Source: a virus (Duplodnaviria; Caudoviricetes). Taken from it: a DNA stretch of 30,988 nt. The stretch lies in the IMG/VR virus record IMGVR_UViG_3300037791_000048, positions 1 to 30,988 of that record, one strand, 5' to 3'. A program made the translations under genes and the position numbers. This document shows, one piece after another, positions 1 through 11,830 of this stretch (positions within the stretch are counted from its first letter, which is position 1; every line of letters begins with the position of its first letter). The notes under the pieces were generated by a model, which did not search any database, was not told the origin of the DNA, and worked only from the letters and a program-made list of their open reading frames with translations.

Positions 1-1728
1 ATGATTCTTGGTATATATTGCAGAAAATCAGTTGATTCCAAAGATAGGGACTCATCCTCCATTGATGACCAAAAACAGGCAGGTATCAACCTTGCAAGGT
101 CATTGGGCATGGAACACAAGCTCTACATCGAGCAGACGAGTTCGGGAAAGCTGGAACTGAAGGATAGACCCAAGATGGTTCAGATGTTAAAGGACATCGA
201 CCAAAAGAAACCCAAGATACAAGCCGTTTTTGCCTATGACCCAAGTAGGCTCTACAGAAACGATGACACCAAAATCCAGTTCCTTTCCATTATCAAGAAA
301 AGGGAAATAGAACTCTACTTCCAGTCAGGGAAATTCGATTGGAACGACCCCACTTCAAAACTTGTACACAACATCCTATCAGCCACTAATGAATTCTTTG
401 TGGACTTGACTTCCATGAAGATTAAGGATACACTCAGGAGAAAGGCCAAACAGGGAAAAGTCAATGGTGCAGTACTGCCCTACGGTTATAAGGCCAACAG
501 TGAGAAGTATTTGGTTATCGATGAACAGGAGGCCGAGGTTGTGAGATACATCTTTGATGGTTTCATGGAGGGCAAAACATCCACCCAAATCAGGAACTAT
601 CTTATAGATAATGAAATACCCACACGCTACAACAAGATTGGTGGAACTAAGGATTATGTCCACAAGGAGCGTGATGAGGTCAGGACTACCAAGAAAAGTG
701 ATAGCAGGTGGACAAATGGAACTATCCTACAGATTCTCAGGAATCCAGTTTATAAAGGTGAGCGCAAATGGGGCGAGGAAGTTTTTGATTCCCCTATCAT
801 CATTGACCCCGTTAAATGGGAAAAGGTAAACCAAAGCTACCTCAACAGGAACAAGGGCAGCCTTAGGGGAAAGAATACGGAACATAAGTACCTTCTTACC
901 CCAATGCTACAATGTGGTTGTGGGAAGTCGCTCATAGGCCGTTCCAACAAGCTCGAAAACTACTATGGTTGTGCAGGGAAACGCTACAAGGAAACCAAGT
1001 GCAATAGCAAGTACATACCTGTAAGGGTGCTGGATGAGCTAATAACCAACATAGTATATGGAAATCTCTACCAAACCGTCAAACAAAGTGGTTCGGGGGA
1101 TGTTGTCAAAAAACGTGAGCAACTTGAAAAAAGGATTGCAGATTATGACACGGAACTTGCTTCCATCAAAAGAAACCTCAATAAACTTGATGACCATCTC
1201 ACTGATGGCAGGTTCACCACGGAACAGTACGATAGGCAGAAAAAAAGGCTCTCAGCCCAAACCAGTGACCTACAGATAAAGAAATCCAACCTGCAAGAAC
1301 AACTTTCAGCCTTGAAGGGGGATGTGAACCAATTGGAGCAGATTGAGAATGACATTATCAAGCCCATGATGGATAAAATGGAATATCCACAGCATCCTGA
1401 CAGCTACAATCCTTTTGAACCATTGCTATTGAAGATATTCCAATCTACGGTTGGTCGGGCGCAACCTTTTGAAGAAAAACAGAAGGTCATCAGAAAATAC
1501 GTAAAGAACATCAAGGTAGATTACAAGAAAGAACATAAGCTACACGAGATAACCCTAAGCTATAGATTGCCCATAGAGGATGAAACCTATTATATGGATG
1601 TCCACACCCTCCACGCCATTGATTCAAGGAGCAGACAGCCCGTATGGGTCAATGAAGAAAGGTATGAAAAGCACAGGGAGAAAGTAATCCAAGAAACCGA
1701 GGCACGTTTAAGGGAATACCAAGGTTAA
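1..1728 (+). CDS. Large serine recombinase (integrase)
   Basis: N-terminal IYCRKS catalytic motif, D-PSRL-R, PYGY recombinase domain, ILRNPVYKG, Cys ribbon (CGCG...C...C), coiled coil; 575 aa. Confidence 0.95.
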   Translation: MILGIYCRKSVDSKDRDSSSIDDQKQAGINLARSLGMEHKLYIEQTSSGKLELKDRPKMVQMLKDIDQKKPKIQAVFAYDPSRLYRNDDTKIQFLSIIKKREIELYFQSGKFDWNDPTSKLVHNILSATNEFFVDLTSMKIKDTLRRKAKQGKVNGAVLPYGYKANSEKYLVIDEQEAEVVRYIFDGFMEGKTSTQIRNYLIDNEIPTRYNKIGGTKDYVHKERDEVRTTKKSDSRWTNGTILQILRNPVYKGERKWGEEVFDSPIIIDPVKWEKVNQSYLNRNKGSLRGKNTEHKYLLTPMLQCGCGKSLIGRSNKLENYYGCAGKRYKETKCNSKYIPVRVLDELITNIVYGNLYQTVKQSGSGDVVKKREQLEKRIADYDTELASIKRNLNKLDDHLTDGRFTTEQYDRQKKRLSAQTSDLQIKKSNLQEQLSALKGDVNQLEQIENDIIKPMMDKMEYPQHPDSYNPFEPLLLKIFQSTVGRAQPFEEKQKVIRKYVKNIKVDYKKEHKLHEITLSYRLPIEDETYYMDVHTLHAIDSRSRQPVWVNEERYEKHREKVIQETEARLREYQG

Positions 1729-2056
1729 AGTTGCGCTTTTTGAACATAACCCCACCATAGCCCATTCCACTATACACATATAGGAACAACCAACACCCCT
1801 TACCCATCATGTAACATTCAACCCCAATAACAAGGGTCTACCGTTACATAAGCGGTAAAACACCCCAACATCTCCATAAACAATTGTTTTTCAATCATCT
1901 AATATCATTATTCTATCGTTTATGTTGGGGGTGCTGAATAAACAAAACCAACCGATACCAACGAACATACACGTACACGGGAAAGAAATGTCCTACAAAA
2001 TGACTATCTTTTACCCTGTCATCACTTGAAAACTGGTAATTTACACTTCGATGGCA

Positions 2057-2085
2057 GCCCCTTGGATTCTTTCAGGGGGTTTTTT
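2057..2085 (+). terminator. Intrinsic terminator
   Basis: gccccttgga-ttct-ttcagggggt stem followed by a T run. Confidence 0.75.
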
Positions 2086-2351
2086 ATACCCAAAACCAAC
2101 GTTTCTTTAAACTATCCTCAATATTGTCTACTTATCATTGAATTATTATCATTCCACCTCCGAGTCGGTATGAGAATCTTTCAATATTTCATTTTTGATG
2201 TACTATAAAATTTATTATGTAAAGTAGATGGTTAATCAACTGATAATCAGCGTGTGTTGTTTTGGTGAGTAGGTCAAATGTGACTGTATGATGTTAAATA
2301 TTGGAAATCGGTTACAATTTGGAAGGGGGAGGATAGGTATTTTGGAGCTTT

Positions 2352-5641: not shown

Positions 5642-5672
5642 AAAAAACCCCCTCCAAATAGTTGGAAGGGGC
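5642..5672 (-). terminator. Intrinsic terminator downstream of the small peptide gene
   Basis: Minus strand reads gccccttccaa-ctat-ttggagggggtttttt. Confidence 0.8.
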
Positions 5673-5716
5673 TACTACTTATCATTCCATTGATTAATGT
5701 TTAGACAATTTACGAA

Positions 5717-5821
5717 TCATAGCTTCTTCCTGATATAATCTACCAAGAGTCCTGCCATGATGCCAAGCAGTACCACACCTGGTGCAGTTCCCACAAGGGC
5801 TTCATTAAATTGCTCTAACAT
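5717..5821 (-). CDS. Small hydrophobic peptide (34 aa), type I toxin-like; absent from the ORF track
   Basis: Hand translation MLEQFNEALVGTAPGVVLLGIMAGLLVDYIRKKL; one TM with a basic C-terminus; flanked by a consensus promoter and a terminator. Confidence 0.7.
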   Translation of the reverse strand: MLEQFNEALVGTAPGVVLLGIMAGLLVDYIRKKL

Positions 5822-5827
5822 AGTCCC

Positions 5828-5859
5828 CAAATTTAAAACGACTCCTTACATCCTGCAAA
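5828..5859 (-). promoter_or_regulatory. Bacteroidota primary-sigma promoter
   Basis: Minus strand TTTG-N20-TAAATTTG, 6 nt before the ATG at 5821. Confidence 0.75.
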
Positions 5860-5887
5860 TCAAGTTATTGGGAATTATTAACATTGA

Positions 5888-6247
5888 TTACAGTTTCTCC
5901 TTCAACCACAGGCCAAAACTCTCATTGTGATAGAGGTTTCCATCGTACTCGAAATGTTTATACTTTTCTATGAGTCCCAACAAAACGTCCGAGATTTTAT
6001 CCCTTGGTAACGCTGAACCTTGGATGTCATATACCCCATTCTTCTTCAACATGTATTTGCCATTGTCAATGATGGCCTTGTCACCGTTTTTGCCATGGAC
6101 AACCAACCGAGCATACCCATAAACGGCATTGCAGACCATGGAGTCCAGTTTGCTTGTATTTATCTCTATCCGTTCGGACATGATTTGGAAAAAATCTGCC
6201 CCAAACCAAAACGTTGTTTTGTGGGGGCTTTTTTTAAACAGTTTCAC
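5888..6247 (-). CDS. Hypothetical protein
   Basis: 119-aa ORF with GTG start; TAATTTTG (-7-like) upstream at 6267-6274. Confidence 0.65.
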   Translation of the reverse strand: MKLFKKSPHKTTFWFGADFFQIMSERIEINTSKLDSMVCNAVYGYARLVVHGKNGDKAIIDNGKYMLKKNGVYDIQGSALPRDKISDVLLGLIEKYKHFEYDGNLYHNESFGLWLKEKL

Positions 6248-6398
6248 CTTAAAACTGGATTAAATCCAAAATTACGGAATATATCCAATAAAATAGTGCC
6301 TGTTGATAAGTTTAAGGCTATTTACAGACGTTTTAAGGAACTATTATAAAAAATATTACACAATACACCATAAAAAGAAGAAATGCTCTTAAAAAGCT

Positions 6399-6683
6399 TT
6401 AAAATACGTTATAGAATATAACGTAAAGTAGATTCATTGTGCCTGTTAACAAAAATATAGCCAATGCAAAAGCACCTCCCGTCAAAAAGAATGCAGGGTA
6501 AATCGGTGCATCTTTCCATTTGTTGATTAGGATGTAGGACAGGAATGACAAGAGTGCCATCGCAATGAAAAAGGGCAACCTGCCCATGCTATCCTGAAGG
6601 TATTTGAACAGACCGCCAAATGCAAACATCCCCACTATGCTCAGGAACAATACAAGAGAAGGGTTGGAATCCTTTTTTTCCAT
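6399..6683 (-). CDS. Small membrane protein (3 TM)
   Basis: Almost entirely hydrophobic; ATG at 6683 (MEKKDSN) preferred over the TTG at 6701. Confidence 0.7.
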   Translation of the reverse strand: MEKKDSNPSLVLFLSIVGMFAFGGLFKYLQDSMGRLPFFIAMALLSFLSYILINKWKDAPIYPAFFLTGGAFALAIFLLTGTMNLLYVIFYNVF

Positions 6684-7072
6684 ACCACTAAAACGGGTCA
6701 AAATGCGGAAAATTGCAGTTTTCGCCCAAAATACGCCTAAACCTACGTGGTTACTAAGCTCATAGTGGATTTACACCCAACCAAAAAGGTGTAGACATAT
6801 TGGTATTATGTAGAAGAGGAGAAGAAGAAATAGAGAAGAAAGTAGAGAGAACCAACCAGTATCCCAACGGCCTCGACCACTTTCCGAACGGTTTTACCCT
6901 TTTCGGCTGTTTTTGTGCAGGGGGCGAAACAATTCCATACGCATAATCTGACGTTTTTCAAAGTTTTTCGACAACTTTAACACTTTTATTATTGGATTTC
7001 AAAACACTTCAACCTTTGGTAGTGCCAGTGTTTATAGGGTCTAAGAGCCGAAATTTCCTGAGAGTTTATCTA

Positions 7073-7104
7073 TTTGGTGAATCCAAATATTATTTCTATC
7101 TTTG
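7073..7104 (+). promoter_or_regulatory. Early rightward promoter (Bacteroidota consensus)
   Basis: TTTG(7073-76)-N20-TATCTTTG(7097-7104). Confidence 0.75.
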
Positions 7105-7118
7105 TAAAATAAAATTTG

Positions 7119-7151
7119 CAAAGGTACAAATAAAACAAATACAAAAACAAA
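7119..7151 (-). promoter_or_regulatory. Leftward promoter opposing the early promoter
   Basis: Minus strand TTTG-N21-TACCTTTG. Confidence 0.55.
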
Positions 7152-7190
7152 TTAATCGATGAAATACATCAAACTTTAACATTTAACCAA

Positions 7191-7236
7191 TAAAAACCCC
7201 ACCGTTAGGCAGGGAAGAAAGTTCTTTTTGTATGTG
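7191..7236 (-). ncRNA. Putative ~45-nt antisense (countertranscript) RNA
   Basis: Lies between a minus-strand consensus promoter (7243-7273) and a minus-strand terminator ccctgcc-taac-ggtgggg-ttttt (7192-7214); 5' end estimated. Confidence 0.5.
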
Positions 7237-7242
7237 AGAATT

Positions 7243-7273
7243 CAAAAGTACAAAATCTTTCCAAGATGTCAAA
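7243..7273 (-). promoter_or_regulatory. Antisense promoter inside the early leader
   Basis: Minus strand TTTG-N19-TACTTTTG. Confidence 0.65.
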
Positions 7274-7300
7274 AGGTGGTGGTTGTCCCAAATCACCATA

Positions 7301-8623
7301 ATGGCAAAATTACCCAAACTAAAAGGTTCAACACCTCAATACAAGCAGGTTGTACTTCCCACTCAACTTTTCGATGACATCGAGGGGCTTGGCCTCACCA
7401 ACATCCAAAAGAACAAGGCATATCACTTCATCGACTACCTAATGGTACAGTCCGATAGAAAATACGGTATGCCCTACTGCTTCACATCTTTCAGCTACGG
7501 TCTGTTCTTGGAAATCTTCAACTCCAAGTACATGAAGTTTGTCAGACCATTGAAGGAATTGGGCATTATCGATTGTGACGAGGTTTTTTCCGTTGATGGA
7601 AACAAGCCACACAACTATAGGGTACACAAGGATTACTTTACAACCGATGACACCACTACAAAGGTTCAGGTAGCTTACTATTCCAATAAATATGATGATT
7701 CGGATGGAGTCATCACCAAATCCGTGGATTTTATCAAGTCATTGTATATCCCCTATGATGGACTTAGAGAGGCTTTGGAACAAAAGTTATATGACATTGC
7801 CGTTGCCGAGTATGTGACCAACCACGGCATCAAGGAAGAGTCTATCAAGGTGTTCGATGGTGAGAGGCACTACTACATTGGAAAGGACAAAGCAATTGAA
7901 AAGGCAACCAAGTTGGGTGTGGAGGTTTTTGAAGATGGTGGCAAATACTTTTTGATGGACAAGTCCGAGTATAAAAAGATGAAGCTCAACCACATTAAAC
8001 GCTCTTACCAAACTGTAATCGAGAACTTAAGGACTGGGAATATCCATGTGGGCAGGAACAGAACCAACAACCGATTGGACACCAACTTGACCAACATGCC
8101 GAGCTGCCTCTACAATGTCATTGCCGAAGCCAATAACCTTATGCAGGTGGATGCTGTCAACAGCCAATACGCAATCCTTGCGGATATTATGAAAAATGAG
8201 GGCATCGAGAGCGATTTCATCAAGGATGCCCAAGATGGCAACCTCTATGAGAACGTGGAGGAAAAACTCAATTTGAAGGATAGGGATGCAGCCAAGAAGG
8301 GATTGATGCAGGTCATTTTTGCCCCATCGTTTTATGGTGGTGGTTTCAAGGATGGTCTGAAGAAACTCTACCCCGAACTGATTGCTTTTTCCGATGGGTA
8401 TAAGGAAGATAAAGGCCACAACCAACTTGCCATCATGCTTCAAAAGTTCGAGTCGGGAATGTATATCGATGAAATTTCCAATGAACTACAGCAAAACGGT
8501 GTGGAATGTACCTCGAAGCATGATTCGATTATCTGTAGGGCTAGTGATGTTGATGTGGTGTTGGATACGATGAAAGAAAAAATGATGTTGAACGGCTTTG
8601 TATGCCAACTAAAGGCAAGCTAA
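7301..8623 (+). CDS. Minimal single-subunit polymerase-fold protein (T7 RNAP/PolA-like); candidate replication initiator or primase
   Basis: Ordered motifs NNRL-T, QVDAVNSQ (A), RDAAKKGLMQVIF (B), KHDSII (C); ATG at 7301 preferred over the TTG at 7283. Confidence 0.7.
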   Translation: MAKLPKLKGSTPQYKQVVLPTQLFDDIEGLGLTNIQKNKAYHFIDYLMVQSDRKYGMPYCFTSFSYGLFLEIFNSKYMKFVRPLKELGIIDCDEVFSVDGNKPHNYRVHKDYFTTDDTTTKVQVAYYSNKYDDSDGVITKSVDFIKSLYIPYDGLREALEQKLYDIAVAEYVTNHGIKEESIKVFDGERHYYIGKDKAIEKATKLGVEVFEDGGKYFLMDKSEYKKMKLNHIKRSYQTVIENLRTGNIHVGRNRTNNRLDTNLTNMPSCLYNVIAEANNLMQVDAVNSQYAILADIMKNEGIESDFIKDAQDGNLYENVEEKLNLKDRDAAKKGLMQVIFAPSFYGGGFKDGLKKLYPELIAFSDGYKEDKGHNQLAIMLQKFESGMYIDEISNELQQNGVECTSKHDSIICRASDVDVVLDTMKEKMMLNGFVCQLKAS

Positions 8624-8793
8624 TGGACACACCCAAGGAACTATTCACAGAAATCAAGAGGATAACCAAGATGGATTTGGATGTCGATGAAAGGAATGAA
8701 GCGATTTATGATGAAATCAACTGCTTCATAAAAAGGTATCCCGAACACACGAAATACATCGAAAACTACTTGAAGAAAACAAATAACAACTAA
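8623..8793 (+). CDS. Hypothetical protein (56 aa)
   Basis: TAATG coupling to the upstream stop; begins MDTPKELF. Confidence 0.65.
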   Translation: MDTPKELFTEIKRITKMDLDVDERNEAIYDEINCFIKRYPEHTKYIENYLKKTNNN

Positions 8794-8805
8794 ACAAACC
8801 TAGAA

Positions 8806-9321
8806 ATGGAAAACGAAAACTGGAAGGATATACCAAACTTCCCCAATTACCAAATCAGCACCCTTGGAAGGGTCAAATCAAAGAAGAGAACTGCTAGAAG
8901 TAGGGAAAAATTGCTTAAACAACAAAAGCATCCTAAAGGATACCGTATCGTAAGGTTGTTCAAGGATGGTGAGGGAACTCAGTTCCTAGTCCATAGGCTT
9001 ATGGGGATTGTTTTCTTTGGAGTCCATACCGAGCTGGGCAAAACCACCATTGACCATGACAATGGAATCAAGAGTGACAACAGGCTTTCCAACCTAAAGG
9101 TAATGAGCCATAGGTCAAACATCTCCAAAGGCTATTTGGAAAAGGAAACAACCAGTAAATACACTGGTGTCAGTAGACTCCCAAATGGAAGCTATTCGGC
9201 AAGGATATGCAACAACGGTGTGCAGAACTATATTGGGACATTCCCAAATGAAGAGGATGCACATTTGGCCTACCAATTGGAACTCAACAAAATCATCGAA
9301 CCCAAAAGAGTTGCTGCATAA
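8806..9321 (+). CDS. NUMOD4-HNH-AP2 endonuclease
   Basis: WKDIPNFPNYQISTLGRVKS (NUMOD4); VHRL...IDHDNGIKSDNRLSNL (HNH); SKYTGV...IGTFPNEEDAHLAY (AP2-like). Confidence 0.9.
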   Translation: MENENWKDIPNFPNYQISTLGRVKSKKRTARSREKLLKQQKHPKGYRIVRLFKDGEGTQFLVHRLMGIVFFGVHTELGKTTIDHDNGIKSDNRLSNLKVMSHRSNISKGYLEKETTSKYTGVSRLPNGSYSARICNNGVQNYIGTFPNEEDAHLAYQLELNKIIEPKRVAA

Positions 9322-9821
9322 TGGACTTTAATGAGCTTACCACCACAAAGAAAGGAACATTGGGTGAGATGATATGCAAGAACCATTTTGAAGATAAGGG
9401 GCTTGTTGTGATGATTCCCGTCACAGAGGCTGCACACGCTTTTGACATGATGGTTTGGGAAGGGAAAACAAACCCGATTATAGTGGACATCAAAACCAAG
9501 GCTTCTAGGCTGCACTACCCTGATACTGGATTCGATACTCCTGACTTTGAAAAGTACTTGGAGGTTTCCGAGAAGCACAACATGAGGGTGGTGATATTCT
9601 TTGTTGATGAGGTAAGGAAAGAAATCTACTATGCACCACTGGACAAACTGGTTGAGCCTGTGACCATAGTACATAAGGGCAAGGAACTGCATTACCCATT
9701 TGAAAAGTGGGGCATCACATTCTTCCCTTTGGAATCCATGAAAAAGCTATGTGATTTGACCGATGAACAGGTCAAGGAGCTTAAAGAACTGACCAACAGC
9801 AACTACAACTATGCAGCATAA
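9321..9821 (+). CDS. PD-(D/E)XK family nuclease
   Basis: KGTLGE...AFD...IVDIKTK motif. Confidence 0.75.
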   Translation: MDFNELTTTKKGTLGEMICKNHFEDKGLVVMIPVTEAAHAFDMMVWEGKTNPIIVDIKTKASRLHYPDTGFDTPDFEKYLEVSEKHNMRVVIFFVDEVRKEIYYAPLDKLVEPVTIVHKGKELHYPFEKWGITFFPLESMKKLCDLTDEQVKELKELTNSNYNYAA

Positions 9822-9955
9822 TGAGTGAACTGACCGAACAAAAACAAAAGAACGAAAAAATGATTGACCAAATCTTCAAGAAACTAGATGCACTGGAAGC
9901 GAAGCTGAGTTTGGTAATCCAATCAATCAATGAACAATTAACCAAAGAACGATGA
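9821..9955 (+). CDS. Small coiled-coil protein (44 aa); absent from the ORF track
   Basis: MSELTEQKQKNEKMIDQIFKKLDALEAKLSLVIQSINEQLTKER; TAATG and ATGA overlaps on both sides. Confidence 0.7.
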   Translation: MSELTEQKQKNEKMIDQIFKKLDALEAKLSLVIQSINEQLTKER

Positions 9956-10449
9956 ACGAATACTGGTATGATATTGAAGGGTTTCCCAATTACCAAATAA
10001 GCGACCAAAAGAGAGTGAGAATGGTGGAGCATGAAAGCACATGCACCTACAACTATCCTGAAAGGATTTGGGAGCGTAAGAAAACCCATGCCCTATTCCT
10101 TGATGGCAAACTATTCAACAGGAGCAGCAATAGGTTGTTGAAGGAAAACTTTACCGATGTGGAACTAGAATCCATGGAAGAGCTTTGGAAGCCTGTACAG
10201 GGCTTTGAAGGTTTTGAGGTGTCCAACCGTGGGAGGCTGAAAAGATTGTCCCGTACAACCGAATTCAAAAGGCACAAGGCCGAAAGCATTCTGACCCAAA
10301 CCCCAATAGGTACAGTGGGAATGGTTGGGGGCAATCCTAGAAAACTGCACACGAGGTCAGTGGAAAAACTATACAGGCAAATAGTTTTAAATCAAGATGT
10401 TACACCAAAACAGAGCAAACATAGAAGAGTGAGAAAAATCCATTTCTAA
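9952..10449 (+). CDS. Tandem NUMOD4-motif protein
   Basis: WYDIEGFPNYQISDQKRVR and WKPVQGFEGFEVSNRGRLKR; no HNH motif seen. Confidence 0.8.
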   Translation: MNEYWYDIEGFPNYQISDQKRVRMVEHESTCTYNYPERIWERKKTHALFLDGKLFNRSSNRLLKENFTDVELESMEELWKPVQGFEGFEVSNRGRLKRLSRTTEFKRHKAESILTQTPIGTVGMVGGNPRKLHTRSVEKLYRQIVLNQDVTPKQSKHRRVRKIHF

Positions 10450-10492
10450 AAATATCAAACCAATCCCAAATCAAATAAACGAGAACCACAAC

Positions 10493-10750
10493 ATGCGAAA
10501 AATCAATGAGTTAGAGAGCTTTGAGAAGCCTCAACATGTAATCAACCTACTTAGTTACCAAAAATCATTTGAAACCTTCATTGCGACCATCAAGAACATC
10601 ATAGGGGCTTCCCTATATGTCCACAGGGATGGGGAAACATCAATTGCCTTTAGAGGTAAAGTTATTGATGGTACTAAAAAGAAGAGATTCGATAACCCTG
10701 AAGAGCTTGACCTACTGCTAAGAATGGCAGGGTTGAATCAATCCAAATAG
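10493..10750 (+). CDS. Hypothetical protein
   Basis: 85-aa ORF in operon orientation. Confidence 0.65.
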   Translation: MRKINELESFEKPQHVINLLSYQKSFETFIATIKNIIGASLYVHRDGETSIAFRGKVIDGTKKKRFDNPEELDLLLRMAGLNQSK

Positions 10751-10828
10751 CACTCCATTATTAATTAGTTGTTGATTGTGGGCTGGGTAGCCTCTGAGCG
10801 TAAAATCCCAGCCCTATAATAAATCCAT

Positions 10829-10849
10829 CCCAAATCCAACCGAAAATGA
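10829..10849 (+). repeat. 21-bp direct repeat, copy 1 (CCCAAATCCAACCGAAAATGA)
   Basis: Identical to 11810-11830; contains the start codon. Confidence 0.85.
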
Positions 10850-11382
10850 AAGAAACCGAAATCTCCCAAAAAAGCCCCAAATCTGTTCCTTTATTAGAGC
10901 CAAATCTTAGTAGCCTGAGCCAATACCATGAGGTTTGGTTCAAAATGGCATGTAAGATTATCAGTAAGAAAGATTGTGAGGATGAAGCCAATGAGCTTCT
11001 TCAAGAAACATATCTGAAACTGCATGAACACTTTAAAAAGAATGAGGTTGATTCCATTTCCAGCCTATTTGTATACAAGTCCATACGAAATCTTTACTAC
11101 AACCTTCAAACAAAAAAGCAGTATGAGTTTGCAACTGATGAAATGGCAGTATTTGAATCAATTGATGAGTCCACGGAATCATTGGAACTCAGAAAAATGA
11201 TGGTTGAGGCTCTTGATGAAATCCCATATCTCGAAAGGGAGGTACTACTACAGCATCAGGAAAAGTCACAAAGGCAACTACAGCGTGAAACAGGTGTTTG
11301 CAGGGACAGGTTGAGAGTCCACAAGAACCGTGGAATGAACAAACTAAAGAAAATCGTAAAGGAAAAACTTAAAACAGCTTAA
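10846..11382 (+). CDS. ECF-like sigma-70 factor (phage late sigma candidate)
   Basis: Region 2-like EANELLQETYLKL...IRNLYYN; region 4-like ALDEIPYLEREVL...SQRQLQRETGV helix-turn-helix. Confidence 0.8.
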   Translation: MKETEISQKSPKSVPLLEPNLSSLSQYHEVWFKMACKIISKKDCEDEANELLQETYLKLHEHFKKNEVDSISSLFVYKSIRNLYYNLQTKKQYEFATDEMAVFESIDESTESLELRKMMVEALDEIPYLEREVLLQHQEKSQRQLQRETGVCRDRLRVHKNRGMNKLKKIVKEKLKTA

Positions 11383-11809: not shown

Positions 11810-11830
11810 CCCAAATCCAACCGAAAATGA
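11810..11830 (+). repeat. 21-bp direct repeat, copy 2
   Basis: Identical to 10829-10849. Confidence 0.85.

What the first reader, a model, noticed from the sequence alone, without database searches (positions are those of the whole stretch)
7191..7303. Antisense-RNA-controlled leader switch on the first early gene
Seen: a minus-strand promoter (7243-7273) and terminator (7192-7214) define a ~45-nt countertranscript. In the + leader, ggtggtggtt (7275-7284) can pair with aaccccacc (7195-7203; 9 bp, one bulge, supported by inner stems gggaaga/tctttcc and ttttgta/tacaaaa). Alternatively it pairs with aatcacca (7291-7298; 8 bp), just before ATG 7301. Inference: antisense binding removes the upstream partner and locks the start-occluding hairpin. 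Established analogues are plasmid countertranscript control (pT181, ColIb-P9) and P4 CI RNA immunity. This may be an RNA-only immunity or copy-number switch.
Basis: partly seen in the sequence, partly recalled or inferred. Interest (0 to 1): 0.85.

Follow-up and report, generated by a model that had tools for sequence, protein, structure and literature searches.

The report
Portable antisense switch gating prophage replication
Three related prophages and three small integrated elements of marine Flavobacteriaceae carry the same short leader cassette, predicted to make a ~50-base antisense RNA that likely refolds the messenger to hide the start codon of the first lytic-arm (probably replication) gene, a plasmid-style control that would give these viruses an RNA off-switch.

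Summary
The window is a temperate Flavobacteriaceae-type phage. The leader of ORF 7301-8623, a PolA-fold protein, carries a consensus Bacteroidota sense promoter (7073-7104), a reverse promoter (7273-7243) and a reverse terminator, predicting a 46-47-nt counter-transcript. The cassette recurs in six lineages: three syntenic prophages, plus non-virion integrated elements and fragments. It was absent from 308 host genes and from 42 other polA-like loci. One copy, found after the model was fixed, precedes a non-homologous gene, so the cassette is portable. In all six, the nascent mRNA is predicted to fold into a long rod (0-9 of 1000 shuffles as stable) that sequesters the 5' arm of a hairpin burying the AUG. 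Correction: on full-length mRNA the AUG hairpin wins or ties without antisense RNA, so the switch must be kinetic. The 9-bp outer helix is only 4-6 bp elsewhere. It works like pSK41/pT181 counter-transcript control, translational rather than attenuating. No expression data exist. 'RNA-only immunity' is unproven: one syntenic prophage also has an XRE repressor candidate. New variant of a known kind.

The parts
7073..7104 (+). Sense promoter, Bacteroidota -33/-7 consensus (TTTG-20 nt-TATCTTTG); start predicted at about 7109-7110, giving a leader of about 190 nt. It is the only plus-strand TAHHTTTG box between 5134 and 27306.
   Evidence: consensus and 4-5 nt spacing from PMC6847099 passages
7119..7151 (-). 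Second reverse consensus promoter, face to face with the sense promoter; would transcribe leftwards. Similar reverse boxes occur in L015, L016 and G002.
7243..7273 (-). Counter-transcript promoter (TTTG-19 nt-TACTTTTG); reverse -7 box 42-51 nt before the ATG in all six lineages.
7192..7238 (-). Predicted antisense RNA of 46-47 nt: single-stranded 5' tail, weak AU hairpin, terminator hairpin with G-U wobbles, U tail (52-59 nt in homologs). Expression not shown.
7192..7214 (-). Intrinsic terminator. Three different stem sequences across lineages all fold on the antisense strand (-11 to -17.5 kcal/mol for the RNA) and more weakly on the sense strand (-7 to -10).
   Evidence: the same hairpin sequence occurs at 97 viral loci
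7195..7284 (+). Predicted ON rod of the nascent mRNA: ACC/GGU outer helix, GGCA/UGUC, GGGAAGA/UCUUUCC and UUUUGUA/UACAAAA stems; sequesters the 5' arm of the AUG hairpin.
   Evidence: (1 of 1000 shuffles in the window)
7267..7306 (+). Predicted OFF hairpin burying the -10 to +6 region including the AUG; not followed by a U-tract.
7301..8623 (+). Controlled gene, 440 aa: family-A polymerase fold with R258, D284, R328xxxK332, H407-D408 conserved; N-terminal helical/wing domain (winged helix inferred from secondary structure only). Likely a primase/replication initiator.
   Evidence: no Pfam, PHROG or NCBIfam hit
8602..11382 (+). Downstream early genes (63-aa ORF, HNH/NUMOD4 proteins, PD-(D/E)XK-like ORF, 85-aa ORF, sigma factor), likely on the same transcript.
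6783..6809 (.). Conserved upstream motif followed by a purine-rich tract, about 350-520 nt before the gene in the window, L014 (two copies), L015, L016 and L018, weaker in G002; candidate origin, untested.
5888..6247 (-). Orphan ORF conserved upstream of the cassette in the window, L015, G413/L018 and G100; no family; possible regulator, unresolved.

Best explanation
A conserved leader cassette is predicted to make a ~47-nt cis-antisense RNA that likely shuts off translation of the first lytic-arm gene, a PolA-fold protein that probably initiates replication, by a kinetic folding switch. Shown by sequence and computation: the promoters, terminator, spacing and both folds in six lineages. Inferred sequence of events: as the sense mRNA is made from 7073-7104, bases 7195-7284 fold into a rod that holds the 5' arm (UGUCA...GGUGG) of the start hairpin, leaving the AUG free for ribosomes, which in this phylum read unstructured start regions rather than a Shine-Dalgarno. 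The antisense RNA would enter through its free 5' tail at the rod's apical loop and pair with 7192-7238 (full duplex -85.6 kcal/mol), so the rod cannot form and the 7267-7306 hairpin buries the AUG at once. Unbound mRNA would also relax to this state later, limiting each mRNA to a short burst of translation. Because no other plus-strand housekeeping promoter box precedes the sigma-factor gene, loss of translation could also silence downstream genes by polarity (inferred). The likely role is negative control of replication in the integrated or low-copy state, as in plasmid counter-transcript systems.
For: Cassette present in the window/L015, L014 (G001), L007 (G002), L016, L018/L050 (G413), and in G100, found by a sequence-only model at E 3e-12. 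The reverse -7 box plus terminator occurs before 0 of 308 host genes, before 1 of 30 window genes and 1 of 28 G002 genes (the polA-like gene each time), and before 0 of 42 other scorable polA-like loci. ON-rod duplex as stable as observed in 1, 4, 0, 8, 9 of 1000 shuffles for five lineages and 0 of 1000 for G100; cognate pairing of the 5' and 3' halves ranks 1 of 120 permutations. The GGU core pairs upstream with probability 0.72-1.0 while the transcript ends before the AUG in all six. AUG hairpin: 23, 5, 18, 226, 9 and 2 of 1000 shuffles. Anchors keep their spacing (ACC -95 to -108, GGU -18 to -26). All six genes start ATG-GC, the 3' arm of the hairpin, even the non-homologous G100 gene, against 17 of 226 family proteins starting Met-Ala. 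Top Foldseek hits are T7 DNA polymerase and other family-A polymerases (E about 1e-6). The cassette also lies in integrated elements without virion genes (L015, G001, G413).
Against: No RNA evidence. At equilibrium the full-length leader is OFF without antisense RNA in L014, L007, L018 and G100 and about even in the window and L016; forcing the target unpaired changes AUG-region accessibility little (for example 0.45 to 0.39 in the window, 0.42 to 0.44 in L007), so the model depends on an untested metastable state. The outer helix alone is no better than shuffles (176-496 of 1000), and its cognate ranking is 16 of 120; the OFF arms rank 14 of 120. Only two positions of the outer helix change on both sides. 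L016 fails the AUG-hairpin criterion. RNAalifold on MAFFT alignments recovers little consensus structure. The scoring criteria were drawn from the positives. The predicted antisense start is a pyrimidine in 3 of the 5 lineages inspected. The replication function of the protein is inferred from fold and context.
Confidence: 0.62

Rival explanations
1. The antisense RNA is real but acts mainly by duplex-triggered decay of the leader (RNase III type) or by blocking a ribosome standby site; the AUG hairpin is a constitutive damper, not a switched element.
For: The AUG hairpin is the equilibrium fold with or without the RNA. A 47-bp perfect duplex would be a nuclease substrate (general knowledge; see PMC7067206 passage).
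Against: Does not explain why a rod that sequesters the hairpin's 5' arm is kept in six lineages with changed sequence.
Confidence: 0.17
2. Repression comes from the act of convergent transcription (collision or occlusion between the sense promoter and the two reverse promoters); the RNA is a by-product.
For: Two reverse consensus promoters face the sense promoter, and a second reverse box recurs in L015, L016 and G002.
Against: The terminator stops antisense transcription about 85 nt short of the sense promoter, and a conserved RNA shape and leader rod are not needed for interference.
Confidence: 0.1
3. Antisense-induced transcription attenuation as in pT181/pIP501, with the AUG hairpin acting as terminator or Rho-loading pause.
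For: Same pre-emptor logic as pT181 (PMC5703833 passage); a co-transcriptional decision fits the kinetics.
Against: No U-tract after the hairpin; no plus-strand terminator found from ATG-200 to ATG+5200 in three prophages or.
Confidence: 0.07
4. The elements are DNA-level signals (origin or primer site for the PolA-fold protein) or a chance assembly of a generic terminator and a promoter box, with no regulatory RNA.
For: The hairpin sequence is a common phage terminator (97 loci); reverse boxes occur before 10 of 308 host genes.
Against: Fixed order and spacing in six lineages, retention before a non-homologous gene, and strand asymmetry from G-U pairs, which matters for RNA.
Confidence: 0.04

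Closest known systems
pSK41 RNAI control of Rep (staphylococcal RepA_N plasmids)
   Same: Counter-transcript complementary to the leader upstream of the start region; binding is proposed to induce a stem-loop that sequesters the initiation region without attenuation (PMC5703833 passages).
   Different: Here the RNA is 46-59 nt rather than ~83 nt, the host reads no Shine-Dalgarno, the carriers are prophages and integrated elements, the target is a PolA-fold protein or an unrelated HTH protein, and no sequence relationship was found (Rfam blank).
pT181 RNAI / pIP501 RNAIII attenuation
   Same: An upstream 'pre-emptor' pairs with the 5' arm of a hairpin next to the start codon unless the antisense RNA binds.
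   Different: The hairpin here has no U-tract and includes the AUG, so it is predicted to block translation rather than terminate.
repABC ctRNA (alphaproteobacteria)
   Same: Small counter-transcribed RNA in front of the initiator gene that lowers its expression (PMC4492784 passage); similar size and a downstream stem-loop partner (recalled, plus a reference title).
   Different: Different phylum, promoter type and initiator; no partition operon here.
ColIb-P9 Inc RNA and P4 CI RNA
   Same: Long-range activating pairing that opens an occluded start (ColIb-P9); small-RNA control of an integrated element's early operon (P4).
   Different: No conserved leader peptide is seen here. P4 CI is, from recall, processed from the sense transcript and causes termination, whereas this is a true antisense gene with its own promoter.
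TV-Pol family / CcPol (for the controlled protein)
   Same: Minimal family-A polymerase core with conserved Arg, two Asp and RxxxK, no nuclease domain, next to a recombinase (PMC2579912 parts 1-2; PMC10061031 passages).
   Different: No D5 helicase or SSB partner was recognised among the ORFs scanned; no direct profile comparison with TV-Pol was made.

Membership tests
Counter-transcript (cis-antisense) control of a replication gene | Own antisense promoter and terminator inside the target leader | tested here: met
   (sequence level)
Counter-transcript (cis-antisense) control of a replication gene | The small RNA is expressed and represses in trans | not testable with these tools
   no RNA run was listed
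Counter-transcript (cis-antisense) control of a replication gene | Target is a replication initiator | tested here: inconclusive
   PolA fold and mobile-element context; the G100 gene has only weak rep/PriCT leads
pSK41-type induced occlusion of the start region | Two exclusive leader folds, start open without RNA and closed with it | tested here: inconclusive
   met for nascent RNA in 6 of 6 lineages; not met at full-length equilibrium
pT181/pIP501 attenuation | Induced hairpin is an intrinsic terminator with a U-tract | tested here: not met
Any Rfam family | Covariance-model score above the gathering threshold | tested here: not met
   0 hits; best E 0.1
RNA-only phage immunity (P4 CI-like) | No protein repressor in the element | tested here: inconclusive
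   no HTH repressor hit among the window ORFs scanned and none evident in the G100 ORF list (most not scanned); G002 has an XRE candidate; the conserved orphan ORF 5888-6247 is unexplained
RNA-only phage immunity (P4 CI-like) | The RNA alone confers superinfection immunity | not testable with these tools
   needs infection experiments
TV-Pol | Conserved Arg hairpin, two palm Asp, RxxxK | tested here: met
   R258, D284, D408, K332 invariant in 51 sequences; R328 invariant in the closer sets
TV-Pol | Profile match to the published TV-Pol alignment | not tested
   no TV-Pol profile on hand
TV-Pol | Linked D5 helicase, or linked resolvase/integrase | tested here: inconclusive
   serine recombinase present in the elements with left-side context; no helicase hit in the 27 window ORFs scanned

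The most novel reading that the evidence does not exclude
In the window's phage and in G100, which show no recognisable cI, this ~50-nt RNA is the main lysogeny and superinfection gate: it closes the only housekeeping-promoter entry to the lytic arm, and its sequence sets the immunity or incompatibility group. It is a plug-in module under which unrelated replication genes have been swapped, and it is shared between prophages and small integrative elements of a phylum that does not use Shine-Dalgarno pairing.
Probability: 0.25. Interest if true: 0.86.

Novelty: new variant of a known kind. Interest (0 to 1): 0.68.

Why it matters
How temperate phages of Bacteroidota hold lysogeny is poorly described, and my searches found no counter-transcript control for a Bacteroidota phage or element. 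This gives a concrete 120-nt, six-lineage candidate with testable pairings. It would be a plasmid-type RNA control on integrating phages, acting on an uncharacterised, large PolA-fold family (5555 representatives at E up to 1e-10). It is portable across non-homologous genes, must work without Shine-Dalgarno occlusion, and appears to need kinetic folding. It could also serve as a compact RNA switch for Flavobacteriaceae genetics.

Full report
Setting. The window is a 30,988-base virus record: serine integrase at 1-1728, accessory ORFs, then a plus-strand arm from 7301 with HNH/NUMOD4 genes, a sigma factor, terminase, virion genes and an endolysin. Its relatives lie in Flavobacteriaceae, so promoters must be read with the Bacteroidota consensus TTTG / TANNTTTG, start 4-5 nt after the -7 box, in a phylum that lacks Shine-Dalgarno use and in which start-region structure tunes initiation (PMC6847099, passages).

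Observation. The window has 5 full promoter matches with 19-21 nt spacing against 0.97 expected, and three cluster here: plus 7073-7104, minus 7151-7119 and minus 7273-7243. A minus-strand terminator sits at 7214-7192. The predicted RNA is 46-47 nt, with a free 5' tail, a weak AU hairpin and the terminator. Its two G-U wobbles become mismatches on the sense strand, which leaves both arms of that hairpin weakly paired in the mRNA (-11.2 against -7.2 kcal/mol for the same stretch). Folding 7191-7303 gives the long rod (z -3.6). Folding 7111-7320 gives instead the hairpin 7267-7306 over the AUG.

The gene. The 440-aa product has no Pfam, PHROG or NCBIfam match. A confident model (pLDDT 90) matches T7 DNA polymerase and other family-A polymerases (E about 1e-6, query TM about 0.4), with the catalytic motifs conserved. 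It resembles the TV-Pol primase-polymerases proposed by Iyer et al. (PMC2579912, parts 1-2 of 3 read), of which CcPol primes DNA synthesis with a partner protein (PMC10061031, passages). Membership was not tested directly. The family is large and matched 33 of 401 sampled Flavobacteriaceae genomes.

Conservation. The leader plan (sense -7 box, A-run plus hairpin, reverse -7 box 42-51 nt before the ATG, AUG hairpin) is present in L015 (95% protein identity), L016 (59%), L014/G001 (57%), L018 and L050/G413 (about 50%) and L007/G002 (26-27%). G002 is a syntenic 31-kb prophage. L015, G001 and G413 are recombinase-bearing integrated elements without virion genes in the stretches read; L016 and L018 are short fragments. 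In the quick tree the G002 protein lies outside the well-supported clade of the others. A sequence-only model built from these leaders found one new strong hit among 69 genomes, G100 (E 3e-12; next best new hit 5e-4). G100 is a third syntenic prophage in which the cassette precedes a 298-aa protein unrelated to the PolA-fold family (hhalign probability 0.1%), with a C-terminal HTH and only weak leads to replication initiators. Every predicted feature holds there. Controls: reverse box plus terminator before 0 of 308 host genes (reverse box alone 10, AUG hairpin alone 14), and before 0 of 42 other scorable polA-like loci, three of them duplicates; 2 of 52 loci could not be scored. These criteria were drawn from the positives. 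The terminator hairpin by itself is generic (97 viral loci), which supports its reading as a terminator and shows that the combination is what is special. Further searches of 302 genome slots and 80 phage loci found no more copies, so the cassette is uncommon in what was searched.

Folding. The 5' and 3' halves of the leader pair better than shuffles in all six lineages (1, 4, 0, 8, 9, 0 of 1000), and cognate halves rank first of 120 permutations, though several non-cognate pairs are as stable. While the transcript ends before the AUG, the GGU core pairs upstream with probability 0.72-1.0. After about ATG+5 it switches to the AUG hairpin in L014, L007, L018 and G100 and is mixed in the window and L016. 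Blocking the target region therefore changes predicted AUG accessibility clearly only for transcripts cut at ATG+3 (window 0.65 to 0.39, L015 0.76 to 0.40, L014 0.91 to 0.56, L007 0.75 to 0.50, L018 0.49 to 0.41, and the wrong way in L016, 0.45 to 0.60) and hardly at all for longer ones. The strength lies in the whole rod.

Mechanism. I commit to kinetic, translational control (confidence 0.62): the rod forms first and exposes the AUG; the antisense RNA prevents or opens the rod; the AUG hairpin then closes. Shown: sequence elements, conservation, computed folds. Inferred: expression, binding route, lifetime of the rod, effect on translation, polarity. No plus-strand TAHHTTTG box lies between 7105 and 27306 in the window, none after the leader in G100, and one in G002, so the leader promoter looks like the main host-sigma entry to the lytic arm; the A-rich plus strand lowers the chance rate of such boxes. 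No plus-strand terminator was found there, which argues against attenuation.

Immunity or copy control. The cassette's presence in elements without virion genes points to control of replication. G002 has a divergent XRE-type ORF (HTH_3 E 2.5e-4, below the curated cut-off; PHROG regulators and repressors E 1e-7 to 4e-6) and three repeats of an operator-like word near its promoters, so there the RNA would work beside a protein repressor. The window has no such ORF and one copy of the word (7156); G100 shows none by ORF list. Both keep an orphan ORF (window 5888-6247) of unknown role. The window's 5643-8768 is 86-93% identical, in blocks, to L015, so recent module exchange or loss of a repressor is possible. 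RNA-only immunity stays open at about 0.25.

Comparison and novelty. It works most like pSK41 RNAI (induced occlusion without attenuation) and shares the pre-emptor logic of pT181 (PMC5703833, passages); repABC ctRNA is similar in size and position (PMC4492784, passages; mechanism recalled). ColIb-P9 and P4 details are recalled, not read. It matches no Rfam family. Literature searches (open-licence library only, listings seen, supplements not read) showed no such system in a Bacteroidota phage or element. Verdict: a real, conserved cassette; new variant of a known kind; interest 0.68, limited by the lack of expression data and by the dependence on kinetic folding.

Noticed in passing
window 6783-6809; L014 7481-7503 and 7581-7600; L016 272-292; L018 3549-3572: Conserved motif plus purine-rich tract upstream of the cassette; a similar reversed word precedes distant polA-like genes L031, L033, L034, L036 and L037. 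Candidate origin or binding site of the protein family.
   Followed up: partly
window 7073-7151: Face-to-face overlapping consensus promoters, repeated in L015, L016 and G002 (where the reverse one points to the XRE gene): a possible classical genetic switch layered on the RNA switch.
   Followed up: partly
window 7156-7170; G002 (L153) 6728, 6824, 6887: Operator-like word, three copies near G002's promoters and one (with an inverted repeat) in the window leader, although the window has no XRE gene.
   Followed up: partly
window 5888-6247 (-): Orphan ORF of about 100-119 aa conserved upstream of the cassette in the window, L015, G413/L018 and G100, absent in G002; no family or PDB match; fold job unfinished.
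   Followed up: partly
window 1707-2186 and 5643-8768 against L015: Blocks 86-96% identical to an integrated element that has a different serine recombinase (35%) and no virion genes: recent module exchange between phage and small element.
   Followed up: partly
G100:C4 98640-97744 (L230 611-1507, -): Singleton 298-aa protein with C-terminal HTH replaces the PolA-fold gene at the same site of a syntenic prophage: non-homologous displacement under a kept leader.
   Followed up: partly
window 10829-10849 and 11810-11830: Exact 21-base direct repeat, each copy ending just past an ATG (sigma-factor gene; likely true start of the small terminase); not found in G002 or G100 at up to 4 mismatches.
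   Followed up: partly
L003, L008, L009, L010, L013, L027, L030 upstream of the polA-like gene: Strong GC-rich hairpins shortly before the start codon (two with the same loop word), without a reverse promoter: possibly other control or origin elements of this family.
   Followed up: no
97 viral loci: One near-invariant unidirectional terminator hairpin with two G-U pairs is reused across many unrelated phages.
   Followed up: partly
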